Positions 21,721 through 43,563 are shown, counted from the first letter of the stretch. The stretch is 64,000 nt of DNA from Candidatus Kaftiobacterium secundum (GCA_031459765.1 JAVKHY010000001.1:468156-532155); one strand, 5' to 3'. Made by a program: numbers and translations. The notes: generated from the letters alone by a model not told the origin.

Positions 21721-22643
21721 GCGACAACCCGTCGGGGAGGAACGACTTCGGCGATCTCGTCACGGAGAGGCGGAACCCCCGCTCGATGCGGCTCGACGTG
21801 ATGAGCACGGCGGAGATTGTCGCGCTGATCAACGACGAGGACGCCACCGTCGCCGCCGCCGTGCGCGGGGCCCTGCCCGAGATCGCGCGCGCCGCGGACC
21901 TCATCGCCGACCGCCTGCGGCGGGGCGGCCGGCTGTTCTACGTCGGGGCGGGCACCAGCGGGCGGATCGCCATGCTTGATGCCGCGGAGTGGACGCCGAC
22001 CTTCGGCACCGATCCCGGGCTGGTCCGCGCCGTCGTCGCCGGGGGCGCCGAGGCGACCATCGCGGCGGCCTCCGCGCTGGAGGACGATGCGGAACAGGGC
22101 GCGCAGGACCTGGCCGTCCACGATCCGGTTCCATCTGATGTGGTGGTCGGGATCGCCGCCAGCGGCCGGACTCCGTACGTGCTGGGCGCGCTGCGGAAGG
22201 CCAGAGCCGCCGGCGCGGCGACGATCGCCCTCTGTTCCAACGCCAACACGCCGATGGCGGAGGAAGCCGACCTGGCCATCGTCGTCCTCACCGGTCCCGA
22301 GGTGCTCACGGGATCGACGCGGATGAAGGCCGGGACGGCGCAGAAGATGGTGCTGAACATGCTGAGCACCGCGGCGATGGTCCGCCTGGGGAAGGTGTAC
22401 AGCAACCTCATGGTGGACATGGTCCCGGCGAACGAGAAGCTGCTCCACCGCGCCCGGCGGATCGTCGCCGAGGCGGCGGGCGTCTCGCCCGCCCAGGCCG
22501 CGCAGGTGCTGGAGGCCGCAGGCAACCACGTGAAGACGGCGATCGTCATGGCCGTCCTCCGCTGCGGGCGGGACGAAGCCCGGGCGGCGCTGGAGCGGGC
22601 CGGCGGCATGGTGCGTATCGCCCTGGAGGCGCGGCGGCCGTGA
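21717..22643 (+). CDS. murQ: N-acetylmuramic acid 6-phosphate etherase
   Basis: SIS domain with the MurQ N-terminus (ERRNPRSMRLDVMSTAEIVALINDED) and GAGTSGRIAMLDA. Confidence 0.85.
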   Translation: MSDNPSGRNDFGDLVTERRNPRSMRLDVMSTAEIVALINDEDATVAAAVRGALPEIARAADLIADRLRRGGRLFYVGAGTSGRIAMLDAAEWTPTFGTDPGLVRAVVAGGAEATIAAASALEDDAEQGAQDLAVHDPVPSDVVVGIAASGRTPYVLGALRKARAAGAATIALCSNANTPMAEEADLAIVVLTGPEVLTGSTRMKAGTAQKMVLNMLSTAAMVRLGKVYSNLMVDMVPANEKLLHRARRIVAEAAGVSPAQAAQVLEAAGNHVKTAIVMAVLRCGRDEARAALERAGGMVRIALEARRP

Positions 22644-23797: not shown

Positions 23798-23927
23798 TTC
23801 CTTCCTCCTCCGGTCCATCCCGGTCGGAAAAGATCAGGTCTCGACCCGATCTCTCCGGCATCGTTCCGGGTAGAGAAGGACAGTAGCGTCGGTTATCCCT
23901 GTCGGTTTGGGGAAGGATTGATGGAAG

Positions 23928-25811
23928 ATGCTCGTCCGCCGCCCTCTCCTCGCTCTTACGGCCGTCTTCCTCCTGGCGATGCTGGCCGGCTTCCCTGCGG
24001 CGCCGGCGCGGGCCCAGTACGAAGACCTCATCGCCCAGGTGAAGCCCGCCGTGGTCCTGATCCAGGTGACCCACGCCCTGGGCGGGCGCGGACACGGCTC
24101 GGGGTTCGTCTACGATCCTTCCGGCTTCATCCTCACCAACCACCACGTCGTGGAAGGGGCGGCGCAGATCACGGTGCGGCTGCAGGACGGCCGCACCTTT
24201 CCGGCCCGGGTCGTGGACTACGTCCGGCGCGCGGAGTACTCGTGTCCGCCGCAGGTGGCGCGGATGGTCGATGCCGCGGTCCTGAAGATCGACGCCACGG
24301 ACCTCAAGGCCATCCCGCTGGGCGATTCGTCGTCGCTGCGGCAGGGACAGGAACTGCTGGTGCTCGGCTATCCCGGCGGGGTCGGGACGGAGGAGGTGAG
24401 CGTGACCCGGGGCATTGTCGGGGCGCTGCGCAGCGGATGGTTCCAGACCGACGCCACGATGATGCCGGGCAACAGCGGGGGCCCGGCGGTCGACCGGCAG
24501 GGCAGAGCGGTCGGGCTGGTCGCTTTCGGCACCGGCCAGTACTTGAAGATCGGCGGCGTCATCGCCATCAACGAAGTGCGGGCCATGGCCGCCGCCGCCC
24601 TCTCTCCCGACGGTCCCCGGACGCGCCAGGTCCTCGTCAGCGGCCGGGAGTTCGTTGCGGCCATGGAGGTAGGCCGCCGGAAGACCCTGCGCCAGACCGC
24701 CGAGGCTCCGGGGATGCGCACGTCGGTGTCGGAGTACAGCTCGGAGGTGACGCAGGTTCAGGAGTTCGCCGGCGCGTTGCTGGCGACGATCCGCACGGGC
24801 CAGGACCGTGAAATGCGCGAGCTGCTGGATGCCGACGGCCTGTTCATCGTCGGCATCTCCGGCGACCGCCACTGGAAGCACTCCTTCCGCGAGCCCTGGA
24901 CCCTGCTCTCGTTCCCCCTGTGCCCCGGCGTCGGATGGCGGAGCCAGGTCGGCATGCAGGAGCTCTCCGACGGCACCATCCGGCAGATGACGATCTCCGC
25001 CCGGGTGGAGGCGGTGGGTGAGACGGTGACGGTCCCGGCCGGGACCTTCTCCGGAACGGTGAAGATCGTCGAGGCGTACGAGATCGTCGATCTTTCGGGT
25101 CGGAAGCCGCCGATCCGCCAGCAGGAGACGGCCTGGTGGGCCCAGGGCGTCGGCGCGGTGAAATCCGTGACGGTGGACGCCGCCACCCAGCAGCGCTGGA
25201 CCGACGAGCTGGTGTCGTCCAGTACCGTTGCGGCCGCGCCCCCGGCGCCTCCGCCCACCCCCGCCCCTTCGCCCTCCGCCCCGACCGTCCCCGCGCCCTC
25301 GGCCCCGGGCCCGTCGACGGAGCCCGGAGCGCCGGCGGCCCGCCCGCCGGCCCCCAACGACCGGGTCATCGTGCCCGGCGAGCGCGTGGGGGCCGTGCGC
25401 ATCGGCGATCCTCTGGACCGGCTCTTCGAAACGCTGGGAGAAGTCCCCACGGTGTCGGGGTCCCAGCGTCCCGGACAACCCTCCGGCTGGATCCGGTACC
25501 AGTGGCGGAACAGGGTGTACGCCTACGTGGAGAAGGACCGGCGGCTGATCACCGAGGTGGGGGTCTGGGCGCCGAACCCCGGCGAGATCGCGCAGCCGCC
25601 CTTCCGCATGGCAAACGGGATCGGCCTGGGCAGCACGGAGGGCCAGGTGGTGGCCGCCTTCGGCCGGCCCCCCAAACGGCAGGAGGGGGCGCGCCACGTC
25701 ATCTACATCTACAGCCCTCAGGGAGTCGCCTTCTTCATCGGGACGAATCCGGGCTATGCCTTCAACGGGCAGGTGTACGACATCTTCGTCTTCCCGCCGG
25801 GCACGTACTGA
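23928..25811 (+). CDS. secreted trypsin-like (S1) serine protease with Pro-rich linker and C-terminal domain
   Basis: signal peptide; HHVV (His), GNSGGP (Ser) active-site motifs; PAPPPTPAPSPSAPTVPAPSAPGPS linker. Confidence 0.75.
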   Translation: MLVRRPLLALTAVFLLAMLAGFPAAPARAQYEDLIAQVKPAVVLIQVTHALGGRGHGSGFVYDPSGFILTNHHVVEGAAQITVRLQDGRTFPARVVDYVRRAEYSCPPQVARMVDAAVLKIDATDLKAIPLGDSSSLRQGQELLVLGYPGGVGTEEVSVTRGIVGALRSGWFQTDATMMPGNSGGPAVDRQGRAVGLVAFGTGQYLKIGGVIAINEVRAMAAAALSPDGPRTRQVLVSGREFVAAMEVGRRKTLRQTAEAPGMRTSVSEYSSEVTQVQEFAGALLATIRTGQDREMRELLDADGLFIVGISGDRHWKHSFREPWTLLSFPLCPGVGWRSQVGMQELSDGTIRQMTISARVEAVGETVTVPAGTFSGTVKIVEAYEIVDLSGRKPPIRQQETAWWAQGVGAVKSVTVDAATQQRWTDELVSSSTVAAAPPAPPPTPAPSPSAPTVPAPSAPGPSTEPGAPAARPPAPNDRVIVPGERVGAVRIGDPLDRLFETLGEVPTVSGSQRPGQPSGWIRYQWRNRVYAYVEKDRRLITEVGVWAPNPGEIAQPPFRMANGIGLGSTEGQVVAAFGRPPKRQEGARHVIYIYSPQGVAFFIGTNPGYAFNGQVYDIFVFPPGTY

Positions 25812-25884: not shown

Positions 25885-27423
25885 ATGCGGTCGCAGACGG
25901 CCGACCTCGTCGGCCAGCATTTCATCGTCGATTTTTCCGCTCCCGAGGTCACGCCCGACCTGGAGCGTCTGGTGCGCGAGGGGCGCATCGGCGGGGTGAT
26001 CCTCTTCGCCAAGAACATCCGCTCCGCCGCGCAGGTGCGCACCCTGACGGCCGACCTGCAGCGTCTGGCGGCGGACGCCGGGCTGCCGCCGCTGTTCGTG
26101 ACGGTCGATCAGGAAGGCGGCGTCGTGGCCAGGCTGCACGAAGGGTTCACCGTCTTCCCCGGGGCGATGGCCCTGGGAGCGACGGGACGGCCGGAGGACG
26201 CCGCGACCGCCGGCCGCGTCACGGCGCAGGAACTGCGGGCGCTCGGCATCAACGTCAACCACGCCCCCGTGCTGGACGTCAACACGAACCCCGCCAACCC
26301 GATCATCGGGCCGCGGGCCTTCGGCGACGACCCGCACGACGTGGCGCGGTTCGGGATCGCCTACCTCCGGGCCCTGCAGGCCGCCGGCGTGCTGGCCACC
26401 GTCAAGCACTTCCCCGGTCACGGAGATACCGTCCTCGACTCCCACCTCGACCTGCCCACGGTGGGGAAGGATCTGCGGCGGCTCCGGGAGGAGGAGCTGT
26501 ACCCCTTCCGGGAGGCCGTCCGCGCCGGCGCCGACGGTCTGCTGTCGGCGCACATCGTCTATCCCGCCCTGGACGCCTCGCGTCCGGCCACGCTCTCCCC
26601 GCGGGTGATGCGGGACCTCCTGCGCGGCGAGCTGGGCTTCGAGGGTGTGGTCATGACGGACTCGATGGCCATGAAGGCCATCGCCGACCGCTGGTCGCGG
26701 GGGGCGGCCGCGGTGGAGGCCCTGCGCGCCGGATGCGACCTCATCCTGGCCTGCGGGTCCCGCGAAGAGCAGTGGGCGTCCATCGAAGCCGCCCGGCAGG
26801 CGGTCGCCGACGGGAGGCTCGATGCCGGCATGATCGAGCAGAGCGGCGCGCGGATTGCCGGAATCAAGGCGCGGTATGCGCGCCCCTCCTCCGGGGACGG
26901 CGGGGCCACCGGGACGGCCTGGCCCCTGGCCCAGGCCATCGCCGACCGCGCCGTGACCCTGGTGCGAAACGACGCCGGACGCATCCCGCTGGGATCCGGG
27001 CGTGTCGCCGTGATCGCCGTAGGCGACCGCACCTGGGAGGACCGCTTCCCGACGCTCGGTGAGGAGCTGGCCCGGGCGGGGCCGGGGGTCGTCGTCGTCA
27101 CGTCGCTGGACGAGGTCCTCAATGGCACCTGGGACACCGTTGTGGCCGCCAGCCTGACCCTGCGCGCCGCCGAAGGAGTGGAGGCGGTGCGCGCCCTGCA
27201 CCGGCATCTCGGTGACCGGCTGGTCGTGGTCGGGATCGGGAGTCCGTACGAGTTGCTGCGGTTTCCCGAGGTCTCGACCTACCTGGCCGCCTACGGGCCG
27301 GATCCGGCCAGCGTCCGCGCCGCGGCGAAAGCCCTGACCGGCGCCCTGACGCCTTCCGGCCGCCTGCCCGTGGCCCTGCCCGGCCTGCATCCCCGCGGGT
27401 GGGGCGTCAGCGCACGCGGGTAA
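25885..27423 (+). CDS. nagZ: beta-N-acetylhexosaminidase, GH3
   Basis: GGVILFAKNI..., KHFPGHGDT motif of GH3 NagZ. Confidence 0.8.
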   Translation: MRSQTADLVGQHFIVDFSAPEVTPDLERLVREGRIGGVILFAKNIRSAAQVRTLTADLQRLAADAGLPPLFVTVDQEGGVVARLHEGFTVFPGAMALGATGRPEDAATAGRVTAQELRALGINVNHAPVLDVNTNPANPIIGPRAFGDDPHDVARFGIAYLRALQAAGVLATVKHFPGHGDTVLDSHLDLPTVGKDLRRLREEELYPFREAVRAGADGLLSAHIVYPALDASRPATLSPRVMRDLLRGELGFEGVVMTDSMAMKAIADRWSRGAAAVEALRAGCDLILACGSREEQWASIEAARQAVADGRLDAGMIEQSGARIAGIKARYARPSSGDGGATGTAWPLAQAIADRAVTLVRNDAGRIPLGSGRVAVIAVGDRTWEDRFPTLGEELARAGPGVVVVTSLDEVLNGTWDTVVAASLTLRAAEGVEAVRALHRHLGDRLVVVGIGSPYELLRFPEVSTYLAAYGPDPASVRAAAKALTGALTPSGRLPVALPGLHPRGWGVSARG

Positions 27424-28450
27424 CCTTGCGCAGTCCCCGCGGCCGGTCGGGATCGAACCCTCTGGCCAGGGCCAGGTGCGCGGCGAACAGCTGCAGCGGG
27501 ACGATGTAGACGTGGGGGCTCAGCACCTCGTCCACAGGTCCCGGGGCGGGCAGCAGGGTGCGGGCCGGCGCCCGGAGGGCCGGGCTGGAGGAGACCGCGA
27601 TCACATCCGCGCCGCGGGCGCAAAGGTCGTGCGCCACCCTGGTCAGGTGGGGCCGCGTCCGTCCGGGAGGCGCGATCACGATCACCGGGAAGCGCCGTTC
27701 CACCACGGCGATCGGACCGTGCAGCAGGTCGGCTGACGACAGCGGTTCCGCCGCGATATAGCCCGTCTCTTTGAGCTTCAGCGCCGCTTCCCTGGCCGTG
27801 GCGTAGTTGTAGCCGCGCGACGTCACGATACAGCGTTCGATCCCGCGATAGCGGTGGGCGGCGTTCTGGAGCACTTCCTCGGAGGCCAGCGCCCGCCCGA
27901 CCAGGTCGGGGAGGAGGCGGTGGCGGTCGAGGAGGCGGCGGTCTTCCGCCACGGCCCCGACCAGGAGGCTGAGGATCGCCAGCTGCGCCGTGTAGGTCTT
28001 CGTCGCCGCCACGCTGCGCTCCGGACCGGCGTGGAGCAACAGCGTGCTGTGCGCGGCGCCGGCCAGCGGGGAGCGACCGTCGTTGGTGATGGCGATGGTG
28101 CGCGCGCCGGCCCCGCGGGCCGCCCGGAGGTACTCGACGATGTCGGGTGAGCGACCGGACTGGGACAGCCCCATGACAAGCATCCCCCGCAGCCGCGGGA
28201 CGCGCCGGTAGAGCGTGACCACCGACGGCGAGGCCAGGGAGACGGGGATACGCAGAACCGTTTCGATGAGATAGTGGCCGTACAGCGCGGCGTTGTCCGA
28301 GGAGCCGCGCGCCGCCAGCACGACGCCCAGGGGAGGATGGCGGCGCAGCCCGGCGGCGACGGCCTCCACGGAGCGCCGTTCCCGGTCCAGCAGCCGGGCC
28401 AGGACCTCCGGCTGCTCCCGGATCTCTGCGATCGTCAGCGTTCCCTTCAC
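27407..28450 (-). CDS. SIS-domain sugar-phosphate isomerase/deaminase (GlmS C-terminal-like, AgaS/NagB-II type)
   Basis: two SIS domains (GSSDNAALYG..., SRGYNYATAREAALKLKETGYIAAE); GTG start with GGAGG RBS; track ORF trimmed. Confidence 0.7.
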   Translation of the reverse strand: MKGTLTIAEIREQPEVLARLLDRERRSVEAVAAGLRRHPPLGVVLAARGSSDNAALYGHYLIETVLRIPVSLASPSVVTLYRRVPRLRGMLVMGLSQSGRSPDIVEYLRAARGAGARTIAITNDGRSPLAGAAHSTLLLHAGPERSVAATKTYTAQLAILSLLVGAVAEDRRLLDRHRLLPDLVGRALASEEVLQNAAHRYRGIERCIVTSRGYNYATAREAALKLKETGYIAAEPLSSADLLHGPIAVVERRFPVIVIAPPGRTRPHLTRVAHDLCARGADVIAVSSSPALRAPARTLLPAPGPVDEVLSPHVYIVPLQLFAAHLALARGFDPDRPRGLRKVTRVR

Positions 28451-28539: not shown

Positions 28540-29796
28540 ATGGCGACACTCACCATTCGAACGGCGGCGCTCCTGGCCCTCGTCCTGGCCGTGGCGGCGG
28601 CGGCGCCGGCCGCGCCCCGGGCGACGATCGAGTTCTGGACGATCTCCCTGCAGCCGTTCTTCACCGACTTCGTGCAGGGCCTCGTCGCCGGCTACGAGCG
28701 GGCCAACCCCGGGGTGCAGGTCCGGTGGGTGGATGTGCAGATGCAGGCCATCGAGCAGAAGCTCCTGGCCGCCATCGCCGGGGGCGTGCCGCCCGACGTC
28801 GTCAACCTGAATGTGGAGTTCACGGTACGCATCGCGGAGAAGGGGGCCCTCCTGGACATGGACGGCGCCGTCCCCGCCGCCGATCGGGCCAAGTACTTCG
28901 AGGGGTTGTGGACCAGCGCGCGGTACCGCGGCCGCAGTTACGGCATCCCCTGGTACATCGCCCCGCCGGTCCTCTTCTACAACAGCGACCTCTTCAAGCA
29001 CGCCGGGTTGGATCCTCTGCGGCCGCCGGCCACCGAGGAGGAGATGATCGAGGCCGCCCGGCGGATCAAGGACCGCACCCGGACCTACGGCTTCATGCCG
29101 CTGATCGACGGCACGCGCCTGATGCACCGCTTCCTGGAGAACGGGCTGCCGATGTTGAGCCCGGACGGCAGGCGCGCCGTCTTCAACTCCCCGGCCCACG
29201 TCGCCTACCTGGCGAAATACGTTGACCTGTTCAAGAAGGACTACTTCCCGGACGACACGCTGCGCCGCGGGTTCGCCGGCGCGGTGGAGCGCTACAGCGC
29301 CGGCCAGCTGGGCATGCTGCTGGTGGGACCGCAGTTCCTGCTGCGGATCAAGGAGAGCAACCCGGAGGTCTATGCGAAGACCTTCGTCGGCCCCTACCCC
29401 ATGGGCGGGGGGAAGGTGATCCACACCGGGCTGATGGTGCTGGCCGTGCCGAAGACCAGCCGGAATGCGGCGGAGGCGGTGAGGTTCGCCCTCTACGTCA
29501 CCAACGACGAGAACCAGCTGGCCTTCTCCAAACTCCCCCTCACGGTGCTGTTCCCCTCCACGAGGAAGGCCGCGGCCGACCCCTTCTTCAAACAGCAGGG
29601 CGCCGGGCCGGAGTGGAAGGCGCGGGCCATCGCCGCAGACGAGCTGAAGTTCGGGCGGGACCTCACCGTGGTCGTAGCCAATCAAAGCGAACTCTACAAG
29701 ATCTTCCGGGAGGCCGTGGAGAGCGCGTTCTTCGGGAAGATGAGCCCGAAGGAGGCGCTGGACTGGGCCGTCCGGGAGTGGAATGCCCGGCTGTAG
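28540..29796 (+). CDS. sugar ABC transporter substrate-binding protein (family 1)
   Basis: signal peptide; SBP_bac_1 pattern; AGGAGG RBS. Confidence 0.8.
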   Translation: MATLTIRTAALLALVLAVAAAAPAAPRATIEFWTISLQPFFTDFVQGLVAGYERANPGVQVRWVDVQMQAIEQKLLAAIAGGVPPDVVNLNVEFTVRIAEKGALLDMDGAVPAADRAKYFEGLWTSARYRGRSYGIPWYIAPPVLFYNSDLFKHAGLDPLRPPATEEEMIEAARRIKDRTRTYGFMPLIDGTRLMHRFLENGLPMLSPDGRRAVFNSPAHVAYLAKYVDLFKKDYFPDDTLRRGFAGAVERYSAGQLGMLLVGPQFLLRIKESNPEVYAKTFVGPYPMGGGKVIHTGLMVLAVPKTSRNAAEAVRFALYVTNDENQLAFSKLPLTVLFPSTRKAAADPFFKQQGAGPEWKARAIAADELKFGRDLTVVVANQSELYKIFREAVESAFFGKMSPKEALDWAVREWNARL

Positions 29797-31984
29797 CCCG
29801 CCCGCCCGCAGGCGGGGGATCGTTCTCCTCTTGCTGATCCTGGCCGCGGCCGCAGGGTCGCCCGCTGTCGGGGCCCCCGGTCGCGCCGTGCCGGACGCCT
29901 ATCTGCCCGCGCCCGCATCCGGCGATCTGCTGCCGGTCCCAAAGGAAGCGACCATCGGCAGGGGATCCTTTGCGCTCTCTTCCGCGACGCGGATCGTCGT
30001 GGCCGACGGCGCGACGGACGAGGACCTCTTCGCCGCGCGGGAGCTCAACGAGGAACTGCGGGCCATGGGGGCTCCCGCGCTGCAGGTGGTCCGAGAGCGG
30101 GAGGTCTCCGGTCCCGATGGCCACGTCCTCATCGGGCAAAACTCCGCCCACGCCTTGCTCCGCCGGGCGTTGGGTGATGCGGCGCCCGTCGCCCGTCCCG
30201 AAGGGTATCTGTTGCGGGTCACTCCCTCGGCCGTTGTCGTCGCCGGGGCGGACCGCCGCGGCACCTTCTACGGCGCGCAGACGCTCCGCCAGTTGCTGCG
30301 GCGCGGGGCGGGGCGCAGTATCCCCGAAGCCGTGATTCGCGACTGGCCCGACCATCCCATCCGCGCCGTACACCTCCTGCTGGACAACGCCTCCGACCCC
30401 TTCCACATCGACCTCATCGACCGCATCCTGGCGCCCTACAAGTTCAACACCATCGTCGCCGAGGCCGAGCACGTGCAGTGGGAGAGCGGCCGTCCCTGGT
30501 GGAGGCCGGATTCCCGGGGGGCGACGAAGGCGCAGGTCCGTCGGCTGCTGGAGGCCGCCCGGGAGCACCACATCCAGGTCATCCCGCTCGTGGCGACGCT
30601 CGGCCACAGCGAGTGGGTCTTTGCCGGGTTGCAGGACGAGACGCTGTGCCCCCGGCTCGCCTACAGTCCGCGGGGAGAGGTCACCTGCGACCGCGGGCGC
30701 GGGGTGTTTCCCGCCGTCTACGATCCCACCAGGCAGTTCACGGTGGAGGGCCGGACGACCACGCTCAACGAGGCCCTGATCGTTCCCGTCCTGAAAGAGG
30801 CGGTGGATCTGTTCAGACCGCAGTACCTGCACCTCGGCCACGATGAGGTCCGCGGACCGTCCGGGCTGCGCTACGAGATGGCGCTCTACCTTCGGGACGT
30901 CATCGCGCTGGCCGGCGAACTGCGCGCCCTGAACGTCCGTCCGATGATTTGGGGCGACGTCCTGTGGGAGCGCAGGGCCGAGGCCACGGCCCAGCCGCAG
31001 TACAGGGACCTGCCCCCGGACCTGGTGATCGTGCCCTGGAAATACGAAGAGGTTCGGGACTACCCCGAGCTGGCCTACTTCCGCCAGGCCGGATTCGACG
31101 TGCTCGGCGCCACCTGGTACCGGACGGCCAACAACCACTTCTTCAGCCGCGCGGCGAGGGCGGCCGGGGCCCTCGGCATGATCCGCACCACGTGGACCGG
31201 GTCCTTTCAGAACCGCGCGGCGCTCGGTCGCGCCTACCAGCAGCTGTATACCTACCTCACCGCCGCGACCTATTTCTGGACGGCGGACCGGCCGGCCCCC
31301 GACCGCGCGCCGTCCGATGGCGAGTTGAGCCGGCGGTTTGCGGATGCCTGGACCCGGGGGACGTCGGTCCCGGAGCAGTCATCAGGCACCTTGCTGGACC
31401 TCTCCCCCGTCGCCAACCAGCGGCACATCGACGACGACGGGAAGGGCTGGCTGGGCAAGGGGCGCGACTACGACCTGCGCGCGCTCCGGCCGGGCCGCCG
31501 GCGACTCGGCGGCGTGCTGTTTGAGGTGCTCGATCCCGCCCGGAACCGGGGCCGGAGCATCATCATGCTCAGGGGCGAGCGCGACGTGGCCGCCTCCCTG
31601 CCCGAGCGGGTGACGGTGCGGTTCGGCGGGCGCGCCGCCTGCCTGGTGTTTCTCCACACCACGCTGGACCGGGCGGTCACCTTCGGCGAAGTCGTCGGCC
31701 GCTACACCATGGTCCTGGCGGACGGCCGCCGTGTGGCGCTGGAGCTCAGGTACGGGCAGAACATCAGTAGCTGGTTGGCGGATGCGGAGAGAGGAATCCC
31801 GTCCATCGAACAGGAAGTGGCCTGGACAGGCCGGACGGTCGCGGGCAACGATGTGCTGCTGACGATGGTCCGCTGGAAGCACCCCCAGCCCGAGGTGCCC
31901 GTGCAGTCCATCGAACTGGCCAGCGCCGGCGGCCGGGCCTCTCCGGCCGTCTTCGCGATCACGGCGCTGGACCGATGCCCGTGA
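29783..31984 (+). CDS. secreted GH20-like beta-N-acetylhexosaminidase family protein
   Basis: signal peptide; GH20b-like N-domain (GTFYGAQTLRQLL) and LHLGHDE catalytic-type motif; assignment moderate. Confidence 0.6.
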   Translation: MPGCSPPARRRGIVLLLLILAAAAGSPAVGAPGRAVPDAYLPAPASGDLLPVPKEATIGRGSFALSSATRIVVADGATDEDLFAARELNEELRAMGAPALQVVREREVSGPDGHVLIGQNSAHALLRRALGDAAPVARPEGYLLRVTPSAVVVAGADRRGTFYGAQTLRQLLRRGAGRSIPEAVIRDWPDHPIRAVHLLLDNASDPFHIDLIDRILAPYKFNTIVAEAEHVQWESGRPWWRPDSRGATKAQVRRLLEAAREHHIQVIPLVATLGHSEWVFAGLQDETLCPRLAYSPRGEVTCDRGRGVFPAVYDPTRQFTVEGRTTTLNEALIVPVLKEAVDLFRPQYLHLGHDEVRGPSGLRYEMALYLRDVIALAGELRALNVRPMIWGDVLWERRAEATAQPQYRDLPPDLVIVPWKYEEVRDYPELAYFRQAGFDVLGATWYRTANNHFFSRAARAAGALGMIRTTWTGSFQNRAALGRAYQQLYTYLTAATYFWTADRPAPDRAPSDGELSRRFADAWTRGTSVPEQSSGTLLDLSPVANQRHIDDDGKGWLGKGRDYDLRALRPGRRRLGGVLFEVLDPARNRGRSIIMLRGERDVAASLPERVTVRFGGRAACLVFLHTTLDRAVTFGEVVGRYTMVLADGRRVALELRYGQNISSWLADAERGIPSIEQEVAWTGRTVAGNDVLLTMVRWKHPQPEVPVQSIELASAGGRASPAVFAITALDRCP

Positions 31985-32853
31985 AGCGGCGCGCCACCCT
32001 CGTCGCCTACCTCTTCCTGTTGCCGGCACTCGGGCTGCTCGCGGTCTTCACCTTCTACCCCGTGATCTACGGGACCGTCCTCAGCCTGTTTGAGTACGAC
32101 ATCATCAACCCGCCGCGCTACGTGGGGCTGCAGCAGTTCCGGCGGTTGCTGGGCGACCGCTACTTCTGGATCGCCATTGCGAACTCGGCGAAGTACATCC
32201 TGGTTGTGCCGGTCATCCAGCTGGGTTCGATCCTGCTGGCCGTGCTGGTGAACCGGCGGCTGCGGGGCATCGGGGCGTTTCGCGCCGCCTACTACATTCC
32301 GGTGATCACCTCCTGGCCGGTGGTGGGGATCATGTGGACCTGGATGTACGATCAACAGGGCGTCGTGAACTGGATCCTGCGCAGCCTGGACCTCATCAGC
32401 CGCCCCGTCTCCTGGTTGAGCCATCCGACGATCGCGCTGTACGCCGTGATGTTCGTCACGATGTGGAAGGGCCTGGGCTGGTACATGGTCATCTACCTGG
32501 CCGGGCTGCAGTCGATTCCCGCGGAGTACGAAGAGGCGGCGATGCTGGACGGGGCCTCACGGAGCCGCATCTTCTGGCGGATCACCGTGCCGCTGCTGCG
32601 GCCCTACGTCCTGCTGGCCTCGCTGATCTCCACGATGGCCGCGGTGAAGGTCTTCGAGGAGATCTACGTCATGACGCGCGGTGGCCCGTTCTTCAGCACC
32701 TACACCATGTTCATGTATATCTTCGACGAAGCGTTCCAGGAGTTGAACATGGGCTATGCTGCGGCGCTGGCCGTGGTGCTGGCCGCGGTGATCCTGGTCT
32801 TCTCCGTGGTGAACTTCCGCGTCTTCCGATCGGGCGGACTGGAATGGTACTGA
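31975..32853 (+). CDS. sugar ABC transporter permease (MalF/UgpA-like)
   Basis: EAA motif region AGLQSIPAEYEEAAMLDGAS. Confidence 0.85.
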   Translation: MPVKRRATLVAYLFLLPALGLLAVFTFYPVIYGTVLSLFEYDIINPPRYVGLQQFRRLLGDRYFWIAIANSAKYILVVPVIQLGSILLAVLVNRRLRGIGAFRAAYYIPVITSWPVVGIMWTWMYDQQGVVNWILRSLDLISRPVSWLSHPTIALYAVMFVTMWKGLGWYMVIYLAGLQSIPAEYEEAAMLDGASRSRIFWRITVPLLRPYVLLASLISTMAAVKVFEEIYVMTRGGPFFSTYTMFMYIFDEAFQELNMGYAAALAVVLAAVILVFSVVNFRVFRSGGLEWY

Positions 32854-33656
32854 GGAAGGCCGGCCTCTACCTGATCCTGCTCGCCCTCGCCGCCTTCACC
32901 ACCTTTCCCTTTCTGTGGACGCTGCTGGTCTCGCTGCGCACCCGCGGGCCCATCTTCGCCATCCCGCCGGATTTGAGTCTGGGGGGGCTGAGCGCCGCCA
33001 ACTACGTGGGGGTCTGGAACACGCTGCCCCTGCCGCGCTATGTGCTGAACAGCCTGTACATCGCCGCCATGGGCGTCGGGCTGACGCTGATCGTCTGCTC
33101 CCTGGCCGCCTATCCCCTGGCCCGGATGCAGTTCCCCGGTCGGAATGTGGTCTTCTACGCGATCATCGCCACGCTGATGCTGCCGGAGCACATCGGGCTG
33201 ATCGTGAACTTCATCACGATGATGCGCCTGCGCCTGGTGGACACCTACATCTCGGTGTACCTGCCGAGCGTCGCCAGCATCTTCGGCATCTTCCTGCTGC
33301 GCCAGGCCTACCTCTCCATCCCCCAGGAACTGGAGGACGCGGCGCGCATCGACGGGGCCGGGGAACTGACCATCTGGTGGCGGATCCTGCTGCCCCTTAC
33401 GGTCCCGGCGCTGGCCACCCTCGCCATCTTCCAGTTCGTGGCCTTCTGGAACAGCTTTCTCTGGCCGATCATCATCCTGAAGACTCCGGACAAATACCCG
33501 CTGGCCGCCGGGCTCCTCTACCTGCGCGGGCTCTTCGCCCACAACACCCGCTTCATCGCCGCCGGCACGGTGATCGCCACACTGCCGATCATCGTGGTTT
33601 TTCTCTTCACCCAGCGCTACTTCATGCGCGGGATCACGGCAGGGGCGATCCGGTGA
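32844..33656 (+). CDS. sugar ABC transporter permease (MalG/UgpE-like)
   Basis: EAA motif LSIPQELEDAARIDGAG; 10-nt overlap with the upstream permease. Confidence 0.85.
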   Translation: MVLRKAGLYLILLALAAFTTFPFLWTLLVSLRTRGPIFAIPPDLSLGGLSAANYVGVWNTLPLPRYVLNSLYIAAMGVGLTLIVCSLAAYPLARMQFPGRNVVFYAIIATLMLPEHIGLIVNFITMMRLRLVDTYISVYLPSVASIFGIFLLRQAYLSIPQELEDAARIDGAGELTIWWRILLPLTVPALATLAIFQFVAFWNSFLWPIIILKTPDKYPLAAGLLYLRGLFAHNTRFIAAGTVIATLPIIVVFLFTQRYFMRGITAGAIR

Positions 33657-35689
33657 CGCGGCATCCGGTCCTGCTCTTCGTGCCTCTCGATGACCGGCCG
33701 GTCACCTGCGACATGGTGGTGGAGCTGGCCGAGGCGGCGGGGGCGGAGGTGCGCACGCCCGACCGCGCCCTGCTCGGGGACCGCGATCGGCCCGGGGATG
33801 TGCGGGGAATCTGGGAGTGGCTGGAGGCCGCAGCGCGCCGTGGGGACGGCGCGGCGCTGATCGCCTCGGCAGAGATGCTCTGCCTCGGCGGGCTGGTCGC
33901 TTCCCGCAAGAGCGAGGCCGAGTTCGAGGAGATCGCCCCTCTGCTCGAGCGCCTCGTCGCCCTCGCGGCCCGCCTGCCCGTCTACGTCTCGGCGGTCATT
34001 CCCCGCACCCCGGTGGTGCCCACGGACGAAGACGCACCCTACTGGGCCGCCTACGGTGATGCGCTGCGGAGTATCACGGCGGGCGCGGAAGGACCGCAGC
34101 CCTCCGTCCCGGAGGCGCTGGACGTCGTCCTGCAGGCCGCAGACCTCCCCGACCCGGTCCGCGAGGCCGTCCGGCGGCAGCGGGGCCGCCATCTCCGGAT
34201 CAATGCCCGGCTGATCGCCGCGGCGGCGTCCGGCGCCATCCGGTATCTCCTGATCGGGCAGGACGACACCGCGCCGGGCAGCCTGTCGCAGATCGAGCGG
34301 GAGGCGCTGCAGGCGCTCGTGGATCAACTCGCCGCATCCGGCGTGATGCTGACGAGCGGGGCGGACGAGCTCAATGCGCGGTTGCTGGCCCGGTGGCTGA
34401 ACGACCTGACCGGCCGGCGGCCGTCGGTGCGCGCCCTCTACACTTTCCCCTGGAGATCCGACGGCGTTCCCCTGTACGAAGCGCAGCCCCTCAATCGCAC
34501 GGTGGCCGAGCACGTTGCCAGCGCAGGGTGTGTTCCGGGCGGCGACGATCCGGAGATCGTGCTCTGGGTGCACAACTTCGAGGACCGCCAGCGCGAGGCG
34601 CAGGATCAGCACGAGGCGCCGTCCCTGCAGGGGCTGGAGCCTCTCCTGAGGGCCGTCCGCGCCGCCGTGCGCGAGGACCGCGTGGTCGCCCTGGCCGACG
34701 TCCGGTTCGCCAACGGCGGCGACCGGGAGCTTGTCACCCGTCTCCTCGATGAGCCGCGATTCGCCGGGATCGTCGCGTATGCCGGGTGGAACACCTGCTC
34801 CAATGCCCTGGGATCGGCCATCAGCCAGGCCGTCGTCGCCTGCCATCTGCGTGCCTACACGCTGCCGGGGGACGACCGTCGGTACCGTCTTGCGCTCTTC
34901 CGACGGCTCCTCGAGGACTGGGGATATCAGAGCGTCGTCCGGCCGCTGCTGACCCGGTGGATCATCGACCAGGGGGGGCGCTCCGCGGAACTGGGTGAGC
35001 ATGAGGCCGAGGCCGAGCGGCGGGCCCTGGAGGGCATGAGAGATGTTGTGCTCCCCCCTCTGCAGCGGTCGTACCGTTACCATCCGATCGACGTGCAACA
35101 GGTGATCTTTCCCTGGCACCGGCTGTTCGAGGTGCGGATCGCCCTGCAGATGCCCGCCACGAGTCGGGGCCGGCAGCAGATCGTCGTTGTGGACTACGAT
35201 CCCGACTGGCCGCGGCGCTACGAAGAAGAGAGGGCCGCCATCGTTCAGACGCTCGGTCCCCTCCTCCGGGGGATCGAGCACGTCGGCAGCACTGCCGTGC
35301 CCGGGCTGGCGGCGAAGCCCATCATCGACATCATGGTCGGGGTGGCCGCCGACGATCTGGACGGGGTCATTGAGCCCCTGGCCGTCCTCGGGTACGAGTA
35401 CGGTCCCGACTGGGAGATCTCGATGCCGCTGCGCCGGTACTTCCGCCGTCTCGCCCCGGACGGTTCGCACACTCATCACCTGCACGTCGTGCCCTACGGG
35501 GAGGAGTTCTGGACGCGGCACCTGCGCTTCCGCGACTACCTCCGGACGCACCCGGAGGCGGTGCGCGCCTACGGTGACCTGAAGAAGCGCCTCGCGGCCA
35601 CCCGCCGGGAGAGCATCGACTACACCTTCGCCAAGACGGAGTTCATCCTGTCCACCGAGGCGGAGGCGGGAGTGGTCCACCGCAGATGA
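33653..35689 (+). CDS. DUF4127 domain fused to a C-terminal GrpB (UPF0157) domain
   Basis: N-terminal DUF4127-like region; C-terminal GrpB-family pattern (HVGSTAVPGLAAKPIIDIMVGV...HHLHVV); GTGA overlap with the permease. Confidence 0.6.
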   Translation: MTRHPVLLFVPLDDRPVTCDMVVELAEAAGAEVRTPDRALLGDRDRPGDVRGIWEWLEAAARRGDGAALIASAEMLCLGGLVASRKSEAEFEEIAPLLERLVALAARLPVYVSAVIPRTPVVPTDEDAPYWAAYGDALRSITAGAEGPQPSVPEALDVVLQAADLPDPVREAVRRQRGRHLRINARLIAAAASGAIRYLLIGQDDTAPGSLSQIEREALQALVDQLAASGVMLTSGADELNARLLARWLNDLTGRRPSVRALYTFPWRSDGVPLYEAQPLNRTVAEHVASAGCVPGGDDPEIVLWVHNFEDRQREAQDQHEAPSLQGLEPLLRAVRAAVREDRVVALADVRFANGGDRELVTRLLDEPRFAGIVAYAGWNTCSNALGSAISQAVVACHLRAYTLPGDDRRYRLALFRRLLEDWGYQSVVRPLLTRWIIDQGGRSAELGEHEAEAERRALEGMRDVVLPPLQRSYRYHPIDVQQVIFPWHRLFEVRIALQMPATSRGRQQIVVVDYDPDWPRRYEEERAAIVQTLGPLLRGIEHVGSTAVPGLAAKPIIDIMVGVAADDLDGVIEPLAVLGYEYGPDWEISMPLRRYFRRLAPDGSHTHHLHVVPYGEEFWTRHLRFRDYLRTHPEAVRAYGDLKKRLAATRRESIDYTFAKTEFILSTEAEAGVVHRR

Positions 35690-37053
35690 GCGAGACCTAC
35701 GACGTCGTCGTTGCCGGAGGCGGTCCCGCCGGAACCGTGGCCGCCGTGGCCGCGGCGCGCAACGGCGCCCGGGTGGCGCTCATCGAGCGCTACGGGTTCC
35801 TGGGCGGCGCCCTGACCGCGGCGATGGTCGCCCCCATGATGGGATTCCATGCCGGGGATCTCCAGGTCGTGCGCGGCATTCCCCAGGAGATCATCGAGCG
35901 GCTGCAGCGCCTCGGCCTCTCTCCCGGGCACGTCCCCGATCCCATCGATTTCTGCTACACGGTGACGCCCTTCGACTACGAGGGGCTGAAGCGCGTCCTG
36001 CTGGAGCTGGCCGTCGAGGCGCAGGTGGAGGTGTGGCTGCACAGCCTGATGCTCGCGGCCGACGCCGCCGCGGGGCGCGTCGGCTGCGTCCGCGTGTGGC
36101 AGAAAGACGGCGTGAAGACGCTGAGTGCCGCCGTGTACGTGGATGCATCAGGTGACGCTGATCTCTGTGCCTCCGCCGGGGCTCCCTTCGAGATCGGCCG
36201 CGCCGCAGACGGCATCCCGCAGCCTATGACCCTGATGTTCCGGCTGCACGGCGTCGATTGGGACGCGGTGATGGCGCACTTCGCCCTGCACGACGAGGAC
36301 CTGCAGCACGGCCAGGGCGTCCACGAGCGCATCGATCTGGACTGGCTGCGGCATTTGCCGATCCGCGGTTTCGCCGGGTTCAAGGGGCTTGTGGCGGAAG
36401 CCCGGGAGCGCGGAGAGTGGACGGTGCCCCGGGACCGCCTCCTGGTCTTCGAGGGCATTCGCCCGGGCGAGGCGGTGGTGAACACGACGCGGGTCACCGG
36501 CGTCGTCGGCGTGCGCGGGGCGGATATGATCCGGGCGGAGATCGAAGGCCGGCGGCAGGCGCACGAGGTGGTGCAGTTCCTTCGCAACAGAGTGCCAGGA
36601 TTCCAGAGCGCGTTTCTCGTCGAGACTCCGGCACAGATCGGGGTGCGGGAAACACGCCGCGTGCTCGGCGCGTATGTGCTGCAGCAGGAGGACATCCTGG
36701 GGGGCGTCAAGTTCCCGGACGCCGTGGCCTGCGGCGGCTACCCCATCGACCTGCACGACCCGGTGTCGATGCGTCTTACCGCGAAGCGCCTGCCGCCGGG
36801 CGAGTACTACACCATTCCCTACCGCTGCCTGTTGCCCCGCGGACTGCACAATGTGCTGACCGCCGGCCGCTGCATCTCCGCCACCCACGAGGCCTTCGCC
36901 GCCTTCCGCGTTTCAGCCATCGCCATGGCCATCGGGCAGGCCGCCGGCACCGCGGCGGCGATGGCGGCCGCCTCCGGCCGTCCCCCCGCCGACGTGGACA
37001 TTACGGAGCTGCGCCGCCGGCTCCGGGACCAGGGGGCGTTCCTCCCCCCGTGA
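35686..37053 (+). CDS. FAD-dependent oxidoreductase
   Basis: DVVVAGGGPAGTVAAVAAARNGARVALIER dinucleotide-binding motif. Confidence 0.75.
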   Translation: MSETYDVVVAGGGPAGTVAAVAAARNGARVALIERYGFLGGALTAAMVAPMMGFHAGDLQVVRGIPQEIIERLQRLGLSPGHVPDPIDFCYTVTPFDYEGLKRVLLELAVEAQVEVWLHSLMLAADAAAGRVGCVRVWQKDGVKTLSAAVYVDASGDADLCASAGAPFEIGRAADGIPQPMTLMFRLHGVDWDAVMAHFALHDEDLQHGQGVHERIDLDWLRHLPIRGFAGFKGLVAEARERGEWTVPRDRLLVFEGIRPGEAVVNTTRVTGVVGVRGADMIRAEIEGRRQAHEVVQFLRNRVPGFQSAFLVETPAQIGVRETRRVLGAYVLQQEDILGGVKFPDAVACGGYPIDLHDPVSMRLTAKRLPPGEYYTIPYRCLLPRGLHNVLTAGRCISATHEAFAAFRVSAIAMAIGQAAGTAAAMAAASGRPPADVDITELRRRLRDQGAFLPP

Positions 37054-37721
37054 TGATTCCCGACCGCCGGCCGCTGCTGATCGTCAGCCTGCCCCGGAAC
37101 GATCCGGCCCTGGCCGCGGCGGCGCGTCAGGGCGGCGCCGACGTCTTGAAGGTGCACGTGAACGTACGCCACCTCGCCTCGGGTACTGTATTCGGGACCC
37201 TCGCGCAGGAGCGGCCGCGCCTCGAGCAGATCCTGGCCTTCGGGTTGCCCACGGGCCTGGTGCCGGGAGAGGAGCGGATGCTCGCCCCGGAGGAGATGCC
37301 CGAGATCCGGCGGATGGGTTTCGCCTTCCTCGACGCGTTCGTCGACACGATCCAGCCGCATCTGTACGAGGCCGGCATTCCGGTCATCCCGGCGCTGCCC
37401 CACTCCGCCGACGATCGTTTCCTGGAGCGGTCCCGCGATCTCCCGGGCGACTGGGTGGAGGCCGCGGTCGTGGCGCCCGATGGCTACGGGAAGCCGCCGG
37501 AAAAGGCGGACTTCGTCGCCCTGCGGAAGGTGGGGAAGGCGACGAGAAAACGCCTGATCGTGCCCAGCCAGCGATGGATCACTCCGGCGCACGCCGTGCG
37601 GTACTTCGGAATTCCCCAGGTGACGGCGCTCATGATCGGCGCCGTCGTCACGGGCATGGAGGCGAAGTCGCTGGGCGCCGCCACCGCCGCCTTCCGCCGC
37701 GCCCTCGATCGCCTCTTTTGA
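37053..37721 (+). CDS. hypothetical protein, possibly NanE-like TIM-barrel
   Basis: ATGA overlap with the oxidoreductase; weak resemblance to ManNAc-6-P epimerase-like barrels. Confidence 0.45.
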   Translation: MIPDRRPLLIVSLPRNDPALAAAARQGGADVLKVHVNVRHLASGTVFGTLAQERPRLEQILAFGLPTGLVPGEERMLAPEEMPEIRRMGFAFLDAFVDTIQPHLYEAGIPVIPALPHSADDRFLERSRDLPGDWVEAAVVAPDGYGKPPEKADFVALRKVGKATRKRLIVPSQRWITPAHAVRYFGIPQVTALMIGAVVTGMEAKSLGAATAAFRRALDRLF

Positions 37722-40942: not shown

Positions 40943-40991
40943 GAAATTGCAGCGAGCGCTACCGAACGCGCTGCATCATCTCTGTGAAGGA

Positions 40992-43547: not shown

Positions 43548-43563
43548 CTCAACAACCCAGGCG

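What the first reader, a model, noticed from the sequence alone, without database searches (positions are those of the whole stretch)
33653..37721. DUF4127-GrpB fusion with FAD oxidoreductase and a NanE-like hypothetical appended to the amino-sugar locus
A 679-aa protein joins an N-terminal DUF4127 region to a C-terminal GrpB (UPF0157, nucleotidyltransferase-like) domain. It is coupled by a GTGA overlap to the upstream sugar permease, then by ATGA overlaps to a GidA/HI0933-like FAD oxidoreductase and a 222-aa protein with faint ManNAc-6-P epimerase-like features. Such tight coupling to a sugar importer suggests an uncharacterised modification or catabolic step for an imported amino sugar or glycan.
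Basis: partly seen in the sequence, partly recalled or inferred. Interest (0 to 1): 0.5.

Follow-up and report, generated by a model that had tools for sequence, protein, structure and literature searches.

The report
Uncharacterised cell-wall amino-sugar catabolic module
Three tightly coupled genes of unknown function (a DUF4127–GrpB fusion, a PF12831 flavoprotein and a small new TIM-barrel protein) are a conserved add-on to a sugar importer inside a peptidoglycan-recycling locus, and probably carry out an undescribed step in breaking down a cell-wall amino sugar.

Summary
Window 33653-35689 encodes a 678-aa DUF4127 + GrpB fusion. It is translationally coupled to the upstream ABC permease, to a PF12831 flavoprotein and to a 222/223-aa protein. 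The window is from an Armatimonadota MAG.

The neighbourhood is strongly conserved. In 37 genomes whose DUF4127 is at least 35% identical:
- both permeases lie upstream in 29/29 assessable loci;
- the binding protein in 22/22;
- a GH20-like enzyme in 17/22;
- the flavoprotein downstream in 17/22;
- the 222-aa protein in 11/14.

GrpB is a clade-specific extra, fused in only 7/37.

Corrections:
- The flavoprotein is PF12831, not GidA/HI0933.
- The 222-aa protein is a small Pfam-less family with a phosphate-binding TIM-barrel fold. By sequence and by structure it is not NanE.

In Bacillota and Thermotogota, however, genuine NanE, ROK kinases and RpiR regulators accompany DUF4127. On two Lactobacillales plasmids DUF4127 is the only glycosidase candidate beside a Lac/Cel-family PTS IIC and NanE.

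Best reading, from context only: this is a catabolic module for a cell-wall-derived N-acetylhexosamine, probably ManNAc-type, oligosaccharide. DUF4127 is the substrate-cleaving enzyme.

No solved structure matches DUF4127 or, beyond its FAD-binding end, the flavoprotein, and no paper on DUF4127 was found.

The parts
33653..35689 (+). DUF4127-GrpB fusion gene (678 aa). DUF4127 domain is approximately nt 33674-35140, GrpB domain approximately nt 35177-35656. No signal peptide.
35686..37053 (+). PF12831 FAD-dependent oxidoreductase (455 aa), ATGA-coupled to the fusion gene.
   Evidence: Pfam E 4.6e-125, full length. GxGxxG motif at residues 11-16. No solved homologue beyond the FAD-binding N-terminus.
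37050..37721 (+). 'p222': a 222/223-aa Pfam-less protein with a phosphate-binding (beta/alpha)8 barrel fold, overlapping the flavoprotein stop codon.
28540..29796 (+). CUT1-type solute-binding protein of the importer.
   Evidence: SBP_bac_1 E 1.6e-39. Closest solved homologue is 6WPM, MsBP (E 5e-58).
29783..31984 (+). 733-aa GH20-like N-acetylhexosaminidase homologue with a signal-peptide-like N-terminus (RRRGIVLLLLILAAAAG) and an HLGHDE motif.
   Evidence: Glyco_hydro_20b E 2.9e-22; GH20 catalytic domain 24.4 bits against a cut-off of 22.3. PDB sequence hits to GH84 and GH20 enzymes. Sequence read.
31975..32853 (+). ABC permease 1.
   Evidence: BPD_transp_1; UgpA/MalF-like.
32844..33656 (+). 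ABC permease 2; its stop codon overlaps the fusion gene's GTG start.
   Evidence: BPD_transp_1; UgpE/MalG-like; junction read.
27407..28450 (-). Two-SIS-domain protein similar to GlcN-6-P deaminase NagB-II / the GlmS isomerase domain. Context gene.
   Evidence: NagB_SO3506 E 3.9e-75, below the curated cut-off.
25885..27423 (+). GH3 NagZ-type beta-N-acetylhexosaminidase. Context gene.
   Evidence: PRK05337 246 bits, above the cut-off of 207.
19649..25811 (+). Upstream peptidoglycan-recycling genes. In order: beta-lactamase-fold hydrolase (19649-20785), BadF-type sugar kinase (~20.8-21.72 kb), MurQ etherase (~21.75-22.64 kb), AnmK (22640-23797), S1 peptidase (23928-25811). An Opp-type importer (16.1-19.65 kb) precedes them.

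Best explanation
The three genes are the cytoplasmic part of a conserved import-and-breakdown module for a cell-wall-derived N-acetylhexosamine oligosaccharide. In this genome the module sits at the end of a peptidoglycan-recycling gene array.

Proposed flow:
1. An exported GH20-like enzyme trims the glycan outside the cell.
2. The CUT1 ABC importer brings in the fragment, probably an anionic one.
3. DUF4127 is the signature enzyme that cleaves or unmasks the sugar. The most likely substrate is a beta-linked, manno-configured residue such as ManNAc-beta-1,4-GlcNAc.
4. The PF12831 flavoprotein is its usual partner in ABC-importer versions of the module. Its redox step is unknown.
5. The 222-aa phosphate-binding TIM barrel acts on the phosphorylated product. 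It sits in the slot that genuine NanE (ManNAc-6-P 2-epimerase) fills in other phyla, and would feed GlcNAc-6-P towards the neighbouring NagB-II-like enzyme.
6. GrpB is a nucleotidyltransferase-fold accessory domain acquired by one clade. It is not essential to the module.

Shown: the domain identities, the coupling, the conservation and the recurring partners. Inferred: the substrate and every catalytic role.
For: Conservation. In 37 species-level genomes with DUF4127 at least 35% identical, both permeases lie upstream in 29/29, the binding protein in 22/22, the GH20-like gene in 17/22, the flavoprotein downstream in 17/22 and p222 in 11/14. A Deinococcus plasmid has the same layout.

Pairing of DUF4127 with a PF12831 flavoprotein in Bacillota at 25-30% identity:
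- Paenibacillus mendelii
- chromosome CP079720
- metagenome locus L094
- Priestia plasmid
- a Peptococcaceae MAG

Amino-sugar and ManNAc signature around distant DUF4127 genes:
- bona fide NanE
- ROK kinases
- RpiR/MurR regulators
- GH20, GH84 and GHL10-type hydrolases

Glycosidase slot. On the Carnobacterium and E. faecalis plasmids the operon is NanE, HAD phosphatase, DUF4127 and a Lac/Cel-family PTS IIC, with an RpiR regulator and no other glycosidase.

Window context. An Opp importer, BadF-type kinase, MurQ, AnmK, NagZ and a NagB-II-like gene lie directly upstream.

Binding protein. Its closest solved relative has a positively charged cleft that prefers anionic sugars (PMC8938411).

DUF4127 active site. 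The invariant set is rich in Asp, Arg and aromatic residues, as expected for an enzyme acting on an anionic sugar.

p222. It is a confident phosphate-binding barrel, and a GHMP sugar kinase follows it in 17 loci.
Against: - All functional evidence is contextual. No member of DUF4127, PF12831 or the p222 family has a tested activity or a solved structure, and no paper on DUF4127 was found.
- p222 is not detectably NanE, so slot equivalence may not mean the same reaction.
- The window module has no kinase of its own. The nearest is the BadF-type gene about 12 kb upstream.
- PTS versions of the module lack the flavoprotein, so its role is not explained.
- In the 43 sampled genomes below 35% identity, mostly Negativicutes, none of 33 assessable loci has a close relative of this flavoprotein downstream. 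The Negativicutes, cyanobacterial and Desulfofundulus loci examined show no conserved sugar-gene context.
- The Priestia locus carries GH38 and ManA, pointing to mannose rather than ManNAc.
- The DUF4127 fold gives no mechanistic clue.
Confidence: 0.55

Rival explanations
1. Pyruvyl-ketal route. The module salvages 4,6-pyruvylated ManNAc (or pyruvylated mannose) from secondary cell-wall polymers that anchor SLH proteins. DUF4127 and/or the flavoprotein remove the pyruvate ketal, a reaction for which no enzyme is known. The freed ManNAc is then phosphorylated and epimerised.
For: - In a Peptococcaceae MAG, DUF4127 is divergent from an operon of a PF12831 flavoprotein, DUF5693, TagA (ManNAc transferase), LytR-CpsA-Psr and the CsaB pyruvyl transferase, with an SLH protein on the other side.
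- Manno-sugar enzymes (NanE, ROK, ManA) recur near DUF4127.
- Carriers include Thermotogota, Deinococcota, cyanobacteria, Paenibacillus, Armatimonadota and Limnochorda. From my own knowledge, not tested here, these are lineages in which SLH proteins and CsaB occur.
- Actinobacterial xanthan loci, where pyruvylated mannose is released, carry an ABC importer paired with an uncharacterised 'FAD-dependent oxidoreductase'.
- A 2019 review lists no depyruvylating enzyme.
- The binding protein's relative prefers anionic sugars (PMC8938411).
Against: - The CsaB adjacency was seen only once among the loci sampled.
- The Lac/Cel-family PTS versions presumably phosphorylate O-6, which a 4,6-ketal blocks (inference).
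- Ketal hydrolysis needs no redox cofactor.
- The Pfam family of the xanthan-locus oxidoreductase was not verified.
- From my own knowledge, Negativicutes anchor their SLH proteins to polyamine-modified peptidoglycan rather than to pyruvylated polymer.
Confidence: 0.15
2. Peptidoglycan-specific route. The importer takes up a MurNAc-containing disaccharide. DUF4127 and the flavoprotein are an alternative way to cleave the MurNAc glycoside or its D-lactyl ether, for example flavin-dependent desaturation of the lactyl group to an enolpyruvyl ether followed by hydrolysis. p222 finishes the phosphosugar.
For: - The window module lies directly after a BadF-type kinase, MurQ, AnmK, an S1 peptidase and NagZ.
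- Other loci have NagZ and a beta-lactamase-fold hydrolase upstream.
- GHL10 proteins accompany DUF4127 in Bacillota. From my own knowledge, this family contains the E. coli denuded-glycan hydrolase DigH.
- RpiR/MurR-type regulators recur.
- Sequence relatives of PF12831 at the FAD-binding end include fumarate reductases and 3-ketosteroid dehydrogenases. From my own knowledge, these enzymes desaturate next to a carboxylate or carbonyl group.
Against: - The window already encodes MurQ and AnmK, so a second etherase would be redundant.
- The NanE, ROK and ManA association is not explained by MurNAc chemistry.
- Many conserved loci (L006, L009 types) have no peptidoglycan-recycling neighbours.
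Confidence: 0.15
3. Salvage rather than catabolism. The GrpB nucleotidyltransferase-fold domain, with a GHMP anomeric kinase in sister loci, converts the imported sugar into a nucleotide-activated sugar for re-use in wall synthesis, by analogy with the AmgK/MurU bypass.
For: - A GHMP kinase most similar to the heptose-phosphate kinase HddA follows p222 in 17 loci.
- An HD_4 phosphohydrolase and a CoaB-like ligase occur in some loci.
Against: - GrpB is absent from most versions of the module (30 of 37 close genomes; all distant ones).
- Some loci have neither GrpB nor a GHMP kinase (L022, L023).
- No GrpB protein has a demonstrated nucleotidyl-transfer activity. The only study found concerns folding of the fused CoaE (PMC2765170, abstract only).
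- The NagB-II and NanE partners point to breakdown.
Confidence: 0.08

Closest known systems
Lac/Cel-family PTS plus 6-phospho-beta-glycosidase operons, and the S. aureus MurP/MupG system (PTS import of MurNAc-GlcNAc, then 6-phospho-N-acetylmuramidase). The MurP/MupG comparison rests on my own knowledge.
   Same: An importer, one dedicated cleaving enzyme, a phosphosugar-processing enzyme and an RpiR/MurR regulator. On the Carnobacterium and E. faecalis plasmids DUF4127 takes the place of the phospho-glycosidase.
   Different: DUF4127 matches no solved structure outside its GrpB domain in the fold search, and by sequence only 2nrk (GrpB) matched. The window version uses an ABC importer and adds a flavoprotein. 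No activity has been shown.
Sialic acid / ManNAc catabolic clusters (NanE, NanK, RpiR-type regulator)
   Same: Distant DUF4127 loci contain bona fide NanE, ROK kinases and RpiR regulators. In the window, p222 sits in the corresponding position.
   Different: No sialate lyase (NanA) is present in any locus examined. p222 is not a NanE family member by HMM, profile or structure ranking.
Peptidoglycan recycling pathway (NagZ, AnmK, MurQ, MurK-type kinase)
   Same: These genes lie immediately upstream on the same strand. NagZ is also adjacent in other loci.
   Different: The DUF4127 / PF12831 / p222 trio is not part of any described recycling pathway, and it also occurs without these neighbours.
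CoaE-GrpB (UPF0157) fusions of mycobacteria
   Different: The partner here is DUF4127, not dephospho-CoA kinase. In mycobacteria the domain was linked to folding of CoaE (PMC2765170), and no catalytic role is known.

Membership tests
DUF4127 (PF13552) | Full-length match to the Pfam profile above the gathering score | tested here: met
   E 1.3e-112, 377 bits against a cut-off of 27; residues 8-496 cover profile positions 2-488 of 489.
GrpB / UPF0157 (PF04229) | Pfam match above the gathering score, and the GrpB fold | tested here: met
GrpB / UPF0157 (PF04229) | A defined biochemical activity | not testable with these tools
   No activity is established for the family. The only paper found concerns CoaE folding.
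PF12831 FAD_oxidored | Full-length Pfam match and an FAD-binding GxGxxG motif | tested here: met
   E 4.6e-125, residues 6-446 cover profile 1-416 of 416. G11, G13 and G16 are invariant or nearly so.
GidA (PF01134) / HI0933-like (PF03486) | Match above the gathering score over the catalytic domain | tested here: not met
   GIDA 21.1 bits against a cut-off of 22.1; HI0933_like 22.7 bits against 50. Both cover only residues ~6-39.
NanE, ManNAc-6-P 2-epimerase (PF04131) | Sequence-family membership (HMM or profile match) | tested here: not met
   No Pfam or NCBIfam hit at E <= 0.01. hhalign against a genuine NanE gives probability 2%. A p222 profile retrieves only 370 cluster representatives from 1.84 billion, which I read as too few to include the NanE family.
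NanE, ManNAc-6-P 2-epimerase (PF04131) | Closest structural neighbour is NanE | tested here: not met
NanE, ManNAc-6-P 2-epimerase (PF04131) | Epimerase activity on ManNAc-6-P | not testable with these tools
   Only positional equivalence was seen: genuine NanE stands next to DUF4127 in six distant loci.
Ribulose-phosphate-binding (beta/alpha)8 barrels | TIM-barrel fold with a C-terminal Gly-rich phosphate-binding loop | tested here: met
GH20 beta-N-acetylhexosaminidase (the 733-aa neighbour) | GH20b N-domain, catalytic TIM barrel and an H-x-G-x-D-E acid pair | tested here: inconclusive
   GH20b 80 bits; catalytic domain 24.4 bits against a cut-off of 22.3, covering only residues 248-357. The HLGHDE motif is present at residues 350-355. 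Sequence is equally close to GH84 N-domains. No structure was predicted.
Peptidoglycan recycling locus | AnmK, MurQ and NagZ present and adjacent | tested here: met
   AnmK 450 bits against a cut-off of 387; MurQ 402 bits against 168; NagZ 246 bits against 207. All lie on the + strand between 21.7 and 27.4 kb.

The most novel reading that the evidence does not exclude
DUF4127 is the founding member of a new class of glycoside-cleaving enzyme. It would be a (phospho-)beta-N-acetylmannosaminidase, or an enzyme that unmasks pyruvylated ManNAc. With the PF12831 flavoprotein and a new TIM-barrel family, it would form a previously unrecognised pathway by which Armatimonadota, Deinococcota, Bacillota, Thermotogota and related lineages recycle ManNAc-containing wall polymers such as secondary cell-wall polymers and teichoic-acid linkage units. 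No enzyme for either reaction turned up in the literature searches.
Probability: 0.2. Interest if true: 0.75.

Novelty: new variant of a known kind. Interest (0 to 1): 0.5.

Why it matters
Three enzyme families with no known function or matching solved structure (DUF4127, PF12831 and a Pfam-less TIM barrel) travel together with amino-sugar importers in at least three phyla, including cultured, tractable hosts. Working out what they do would fill a gap in how bacteria reclaim or scavenge cell-wall sugars. It could also reveal an enzyme for beta-ManNAc or pyruvyl-ketal linkages, for which none is described. The Lactobacillales plasmid version (NanE, HAD, DUF4127, PTS IIC, RpiR) is a minimal five-gene system that makes the question directly testable.

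Tried and rejected
Literature
- Full-text searches for DUF4127, DUF5693 and 'N-acetylmannosaminidase' returned nothing. PF12831 returned two irrelevant papers.

Structure of DUF4127 and the flavoprotein
- A flavoprotein profile against PDB sequences matched only FAD-binding N-termini.

p222
- Longer p222 relatives carry only a ClpX-type zinc finger, or in one case half of a PfkB kinase, which is probably a chimera.

Other leads
- I tried to map the mutated binding residues of MsBP (R125, D173, R228, F248) onto the window's binding protein. The numbering offset between paper and chain could not be resolved, so no claim is made.
- The xanthan-locus 'FAD-dependent oxidoreductase' could not be shown to be PF12831, because no sequence was available.
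- The idea that GrpB substitutes for the GHMP kinase was rejected. Some loci have both (L006) and some have neither (L022, L023).
- Negativicutes, Desulfofundulus and cyanobacterial contexts were uninformative.
Full report
**What is there**

The window is about 70% G+C. Its DUF4127-GrpB protein is identical to one annotated in Armatimonadota MAGs (contigs from GCA_031459255.1 and GCA_031081605.1).

Window 33653-35689 (+) is a single 678-codon ORF. Pfam places DUF4127 at residues 8-496 (E 1.3e-112, essentially the whole profile) and GrpB at residues 509-668 (E 1.8e-48).

The junctions are as follows:
- The GTG start overlaps the stop of the upstream ABC permease, as GTGA at 33653-33656.
- The stop overlaps the ATG of the next gene, as ATGA at 35686-35689.
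- The third junction reads GTGATG at 37050-37055.

A near-consensus sigma-70-like promoter sits just after the last stop, at 37730-37758. The co-translated block therefore ends with the 222-aa gene.

**Identities of the three proteins**

*Fusion protein.* The AlphaFold model is confident (pLDDT 93.5).
- By sequence, only GrpB has a solved relative.
- Across 22 homologues from five phyla, the invariant DUF4127 residues are mostly Asp, Arg and aromatic. They include D13, R15, R85, R118, R177, D204, D205, D238, D349, N354, W379-N380-T381, N384, Y425, R430, W488 and R490. No His, Cys or Lys is invariant. This looks like an enzyme that binds an anionic sugar, but it does not identify a mechanism.

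*Second protein.* It is a full-length PF12831 flavoprotein (E 4.6e-125).
- GidA and HI0933 match only the dinucleotide-binding ~30 residues and fall below their cut-offs.
- Neither the protein nor a 13-sequence profile finds a solved structure beyond the FAD-binding N-terminus.

*Third protein ('p222').*
- It has no Pfam or NCBIfam match.
- It folds confidently (pLDDT 96.1) as a phosphate-binding (beta/alpha)8 barrel.
- NanE is not among the top 50 or top 60 structural hits.
- hhalign against a real NanE gives 2% probability.
- An exhaustive profile search retrieves only 370 cluster representatives out of 1.84 billion.

It is therefore a small, distinct family. 'NanE-like' is true only at superfamily level.

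**Neighbourhood in the window**

The trio ends a long same-strand array. In order:
- Opp-type binding protein and permeases (16.1-19.65 kb)
- beta-lactamase-fold hydrolase
- BadF-type sugar kinase
- MurQ etherase
- AnmK
- an S1 peptidase
- GH3 NagZ
- a NagB-II-like SIS protein, on the opposite strand
- CUT1 binding protein
- a 733-aa GH20-like protein
- two permeases
- DUF4127-GrpB, the flavoprotein and p222

The GH20-like protein has a signal-peptide-like N-terminus and an HLGHDE motif. It is probably exported and catalytically competent.

The binding protein's closest solved relative is MsBP of Synechococcus (6WPM, E 5e-58). MsBP has an unusual positively charged cleft and prefers anionic sugars, and its true ligand is unknown (PMC8938411).

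**Conservation**

A scan of one genome per species returned 406 DUF4127 loci, of which the 80 best were kept. I searched these with the window's proteins.

| Feature | Genomes with DUF4127 >= 35% identical (37) |
|---|---|
| Both permeases directly upstream | 29/29 assessable |
| Binding protein | 22/22 |
| GH20-like gene | 17/22 |
| Flavoprotein downstream | 17/22 |
| p222 | 11/14 |
| GrpB fused | 7/37 |

- Accessory genes in sister clades are a PF00756 esterase (21 loci), a GHMP kinase after p222 (17), an MFS transporter (13), and sometimes SHMT, a DAO-type oxidase, an HD_4 hydrolase and a CoaB-like protein.
- GrpB is fused in about 50 of the 120 best protein clusters and in none of 120 Bacillota-type homologues.
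- In the remaining 43 genomes, mostly Negativicutes, none of 33 assessable loci has a close relative of this flavoprotein downstream. The loci I annotated there show no conserved context.

**Distant contexts**

| Source | Genes around DUF4127 |
|---|---|
| Deinococcus plasmid | nagZ, binding protein, split GH20-like, permeases, flavoprotein, DUF4127 |
| Paenibacillus mendelii | flavoprotein, GHL10, ROK, RpiR, NanE, DUF4127 |
| Chromosome CP079720 | binding protein, permeases, NanE, DUF4855, RpiR, AP_endonuc_2, DUF624, DUF4127, flavoprotein, three Gfo/Idh/MocA, HAD |
| Metagenome locus L094 | flavoprotein, GHL10, importer, GHL10, ROK, DUF4127, RpiR, ADP-ribosylglycohydrolase-like, GH20 |
| Thermotogota MAG | NanE-ROK fusion, DUF4127, GH84, DUF4434 |
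| Priestia megaterium plasmid | permeases, flavoprotein, GH38, ROK, esterase, DUF4127, ROK, ManA, PTS, NanE, RpiR |
| Carnobacterium and E. faecalis plasmids | RpiR, NanE, Cof-type HAD, DUF4127, Lac/Cel-family PTS IIC |
| Peptococcaceae MAG | DUF4127 divergent from flavoprotein, DUF5693, TagA, LytR-CpsA-Psr, CsaB; SLH protein alongside |

The binding protein and permeases of the Bacillota and Deinococcus loci are homologous to the window's (36-47% and 39-59% identity). This suggests related substrates.

**Interpretation**

Four points recur.
1. DUF4127 is tied to import of a sugar, by ABC transporter or by PTS.
2. It is accompanied by N-acetylhexosaminidase-type or GHL-type hydrolases.
3. Its usual downstream partners are enzymes of ManNAc(-6-P) or mannose(-6-P) metabolism and RpiR/MurR regulators.
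4. A PF12831 flavoprotein accompanies it in ABC-importer versions but not in the PTS versions.

In the two Lactobacillales plasmids, DUF4127 is the only candidate for the glycoside-cleaving step that normally partners a Lac/Cel-family PTS.

I therefore think the module breaks down a cell-wall-derived N-acetylhexosamine oligosaccharide. DUF4127 would be the cleaving or unmasking enzyme, and p222 would process the phosphorylated product in the position NanE holds elsewhere.

A beta-linked ManNAc substrate is attractive. From general glycosidase chemistry, not tested here, neighbouring-group catalysis as used by GH20/GH84 cannot work on a beta-manno acetamido sugar. In addition, no N-acetylmannosaminidase appears in the literature searched. 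This remains inference.

Confidence:
- General statement (a catabolic module for a cell-wall amino sugar): about 0.55-0.7.
- ManNAc as the substrate: about 0.35.
- DUF4127 as a glycosidase: about 0.25.

**Rivals**

- *Pyruvyl-ketal removal from SLH-anchoring wall polymers.* Supported by the CsaB/TagA/SLH adjacency and the manno-sugar enzymes. Weakened because that adjacency was seen once, and because a PTS would need a free O-6.
- *A MurNAc-specific route.* Supported by the window's MurQ/AnmK/NagZ context and by GHL10 neighbours. It would be redundant with MurQ and does not explain NanE or ManA.
- *Salvage to a nucleotide sugar through GrpB and a GHMP kinase.* Weakened because GrpB is dispensable and has no demonstrated activity.
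- *Chance adjacency.* Excluded by the conservation figures.

**Novelty and value**

The genes are already annotated as 'DUF4127 family protein', 'FAD-dependent oxidoreductase' and 'hypothetical protein', so the sequences themselves are not new. What has not been described, as far as I could find, is:
- the conserved module;
- its link to cell-wall amino-sugar metabolism;
- the NanE-slot relationship;
- the minimal plasmid version.

It is a new variant of a familiar kind, a sugar-utilisation locus, built around three families of unknown function. It would become important if DUF4127 proves to be a new glycoside-cleaving or depyruvylating enzyme.

Noticed in passing
window 39255-40369 (+): An IS3-type insertion sequence (HTH_Tnp_1 ORF followed by an rve/rve_3 integrase ORF) lies about 1.5 kb downstream of the module. 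It is present in assembly GCA_031081605.1 (L002) but absent at the same place in GCA_031459255.1 (L001), so the insertion is polymorphic between closely related MAGs.
   Followed up: partly
window 40000-46000: A low-G+C island (55-62% against ~70% elsewhere). It carries a GNAT acetyltransferase (40364-40942, -), a radical SAM/SPASM protein (41321-42367, -), an MFS transporter (42291-43583, -) and a radical SAM protein with a PqqD domain (43564-44853, -). This looks like a horizontally acquired RiPP-type maturation cluster. A P-type ATPase follows at 44950-46563.
   Followed up: partly
window 37730-37758 (+): A near-consensus sigma-70-like promoter (TTGACA, 17 nt, TAGAAT; 11 of 12 matches) lies 9 nt after the stop of the 222-aa gene. 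It was the only such site in 11.7 kb.
   Followed up: no
window 11259-14856 (-) and 16100-19652 (+): Two separate Opp/Dpp-type importers (SBP_bac_5 plus two permeases each) are arranged divergently. The + strand set leads straight into the beta-lactamase-fold hydrolase, BadF-type kinase, MurQ and AnmK genes, as expected for a muropeptide importer.
   Followed up: partly
L069 5353-9743 (-), Peptococcaceae bacterium BRH_c8a: A 620-aa PF12831 flavoprotein with an N-terminal extension and a DUF5693 protein are embedded in a TagA, LytR-CpsA-Psr and CsaB wall-polymer operon beside an SLH protein. This suggests PF12831 and DUF5693 have a role in biosynthesis or remodelling of the pyruvylated secondary cell-wall polymer.
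   Followed up: partly
L098 7505-12832 (Carnobacterium pCAR50) and L099 5053-10821 (E. faecalis plasmid LR962301.1): A compact, apparently mobile five-gene module (RpiR, NanE, Cof-type HAD phosphatase, DUF4127, Lac/Cel-family PTS IIC) occurs on Lactobacillales plasmids. In the E. faecalis record an IS6 transposase lies about 2 kb downstream.
   Followed up: partly
L006 12067-18049 and L024 12575-20266: Sister versions of the module interleave genes whose connection to a sugar pathway is unexplained: a RelA/SpoT-type HD_4 hydrolase, a D-amino-acid-dehydrogenase-like DAO, serine hydroxymethyltransferase, an HddA-like GHMP kinase, an MFS transporter and a stand-alone CoaB-like (DFP) ligase.
   Followed up: partly
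P0383, P0489, P0484 (relatives of the 222-aa protein): Two p222 homologues carry an N-terminal ClpX-type C4 zinc finger. One 282-aa protein joins the first half of p222 to the C-terminal half of a PfkB sugar kinase, which may be a frameshift chimera of adjacent genes.
   Followed up: no
window 21938-23833 (-), 33617-35680 (-) and others: Very long antisense ORFs (626-752 aa) shadow the real genes. They have no Pfam hits and are ORF-length artefacts of the high G+C content, not genes.
   Followed up: yes
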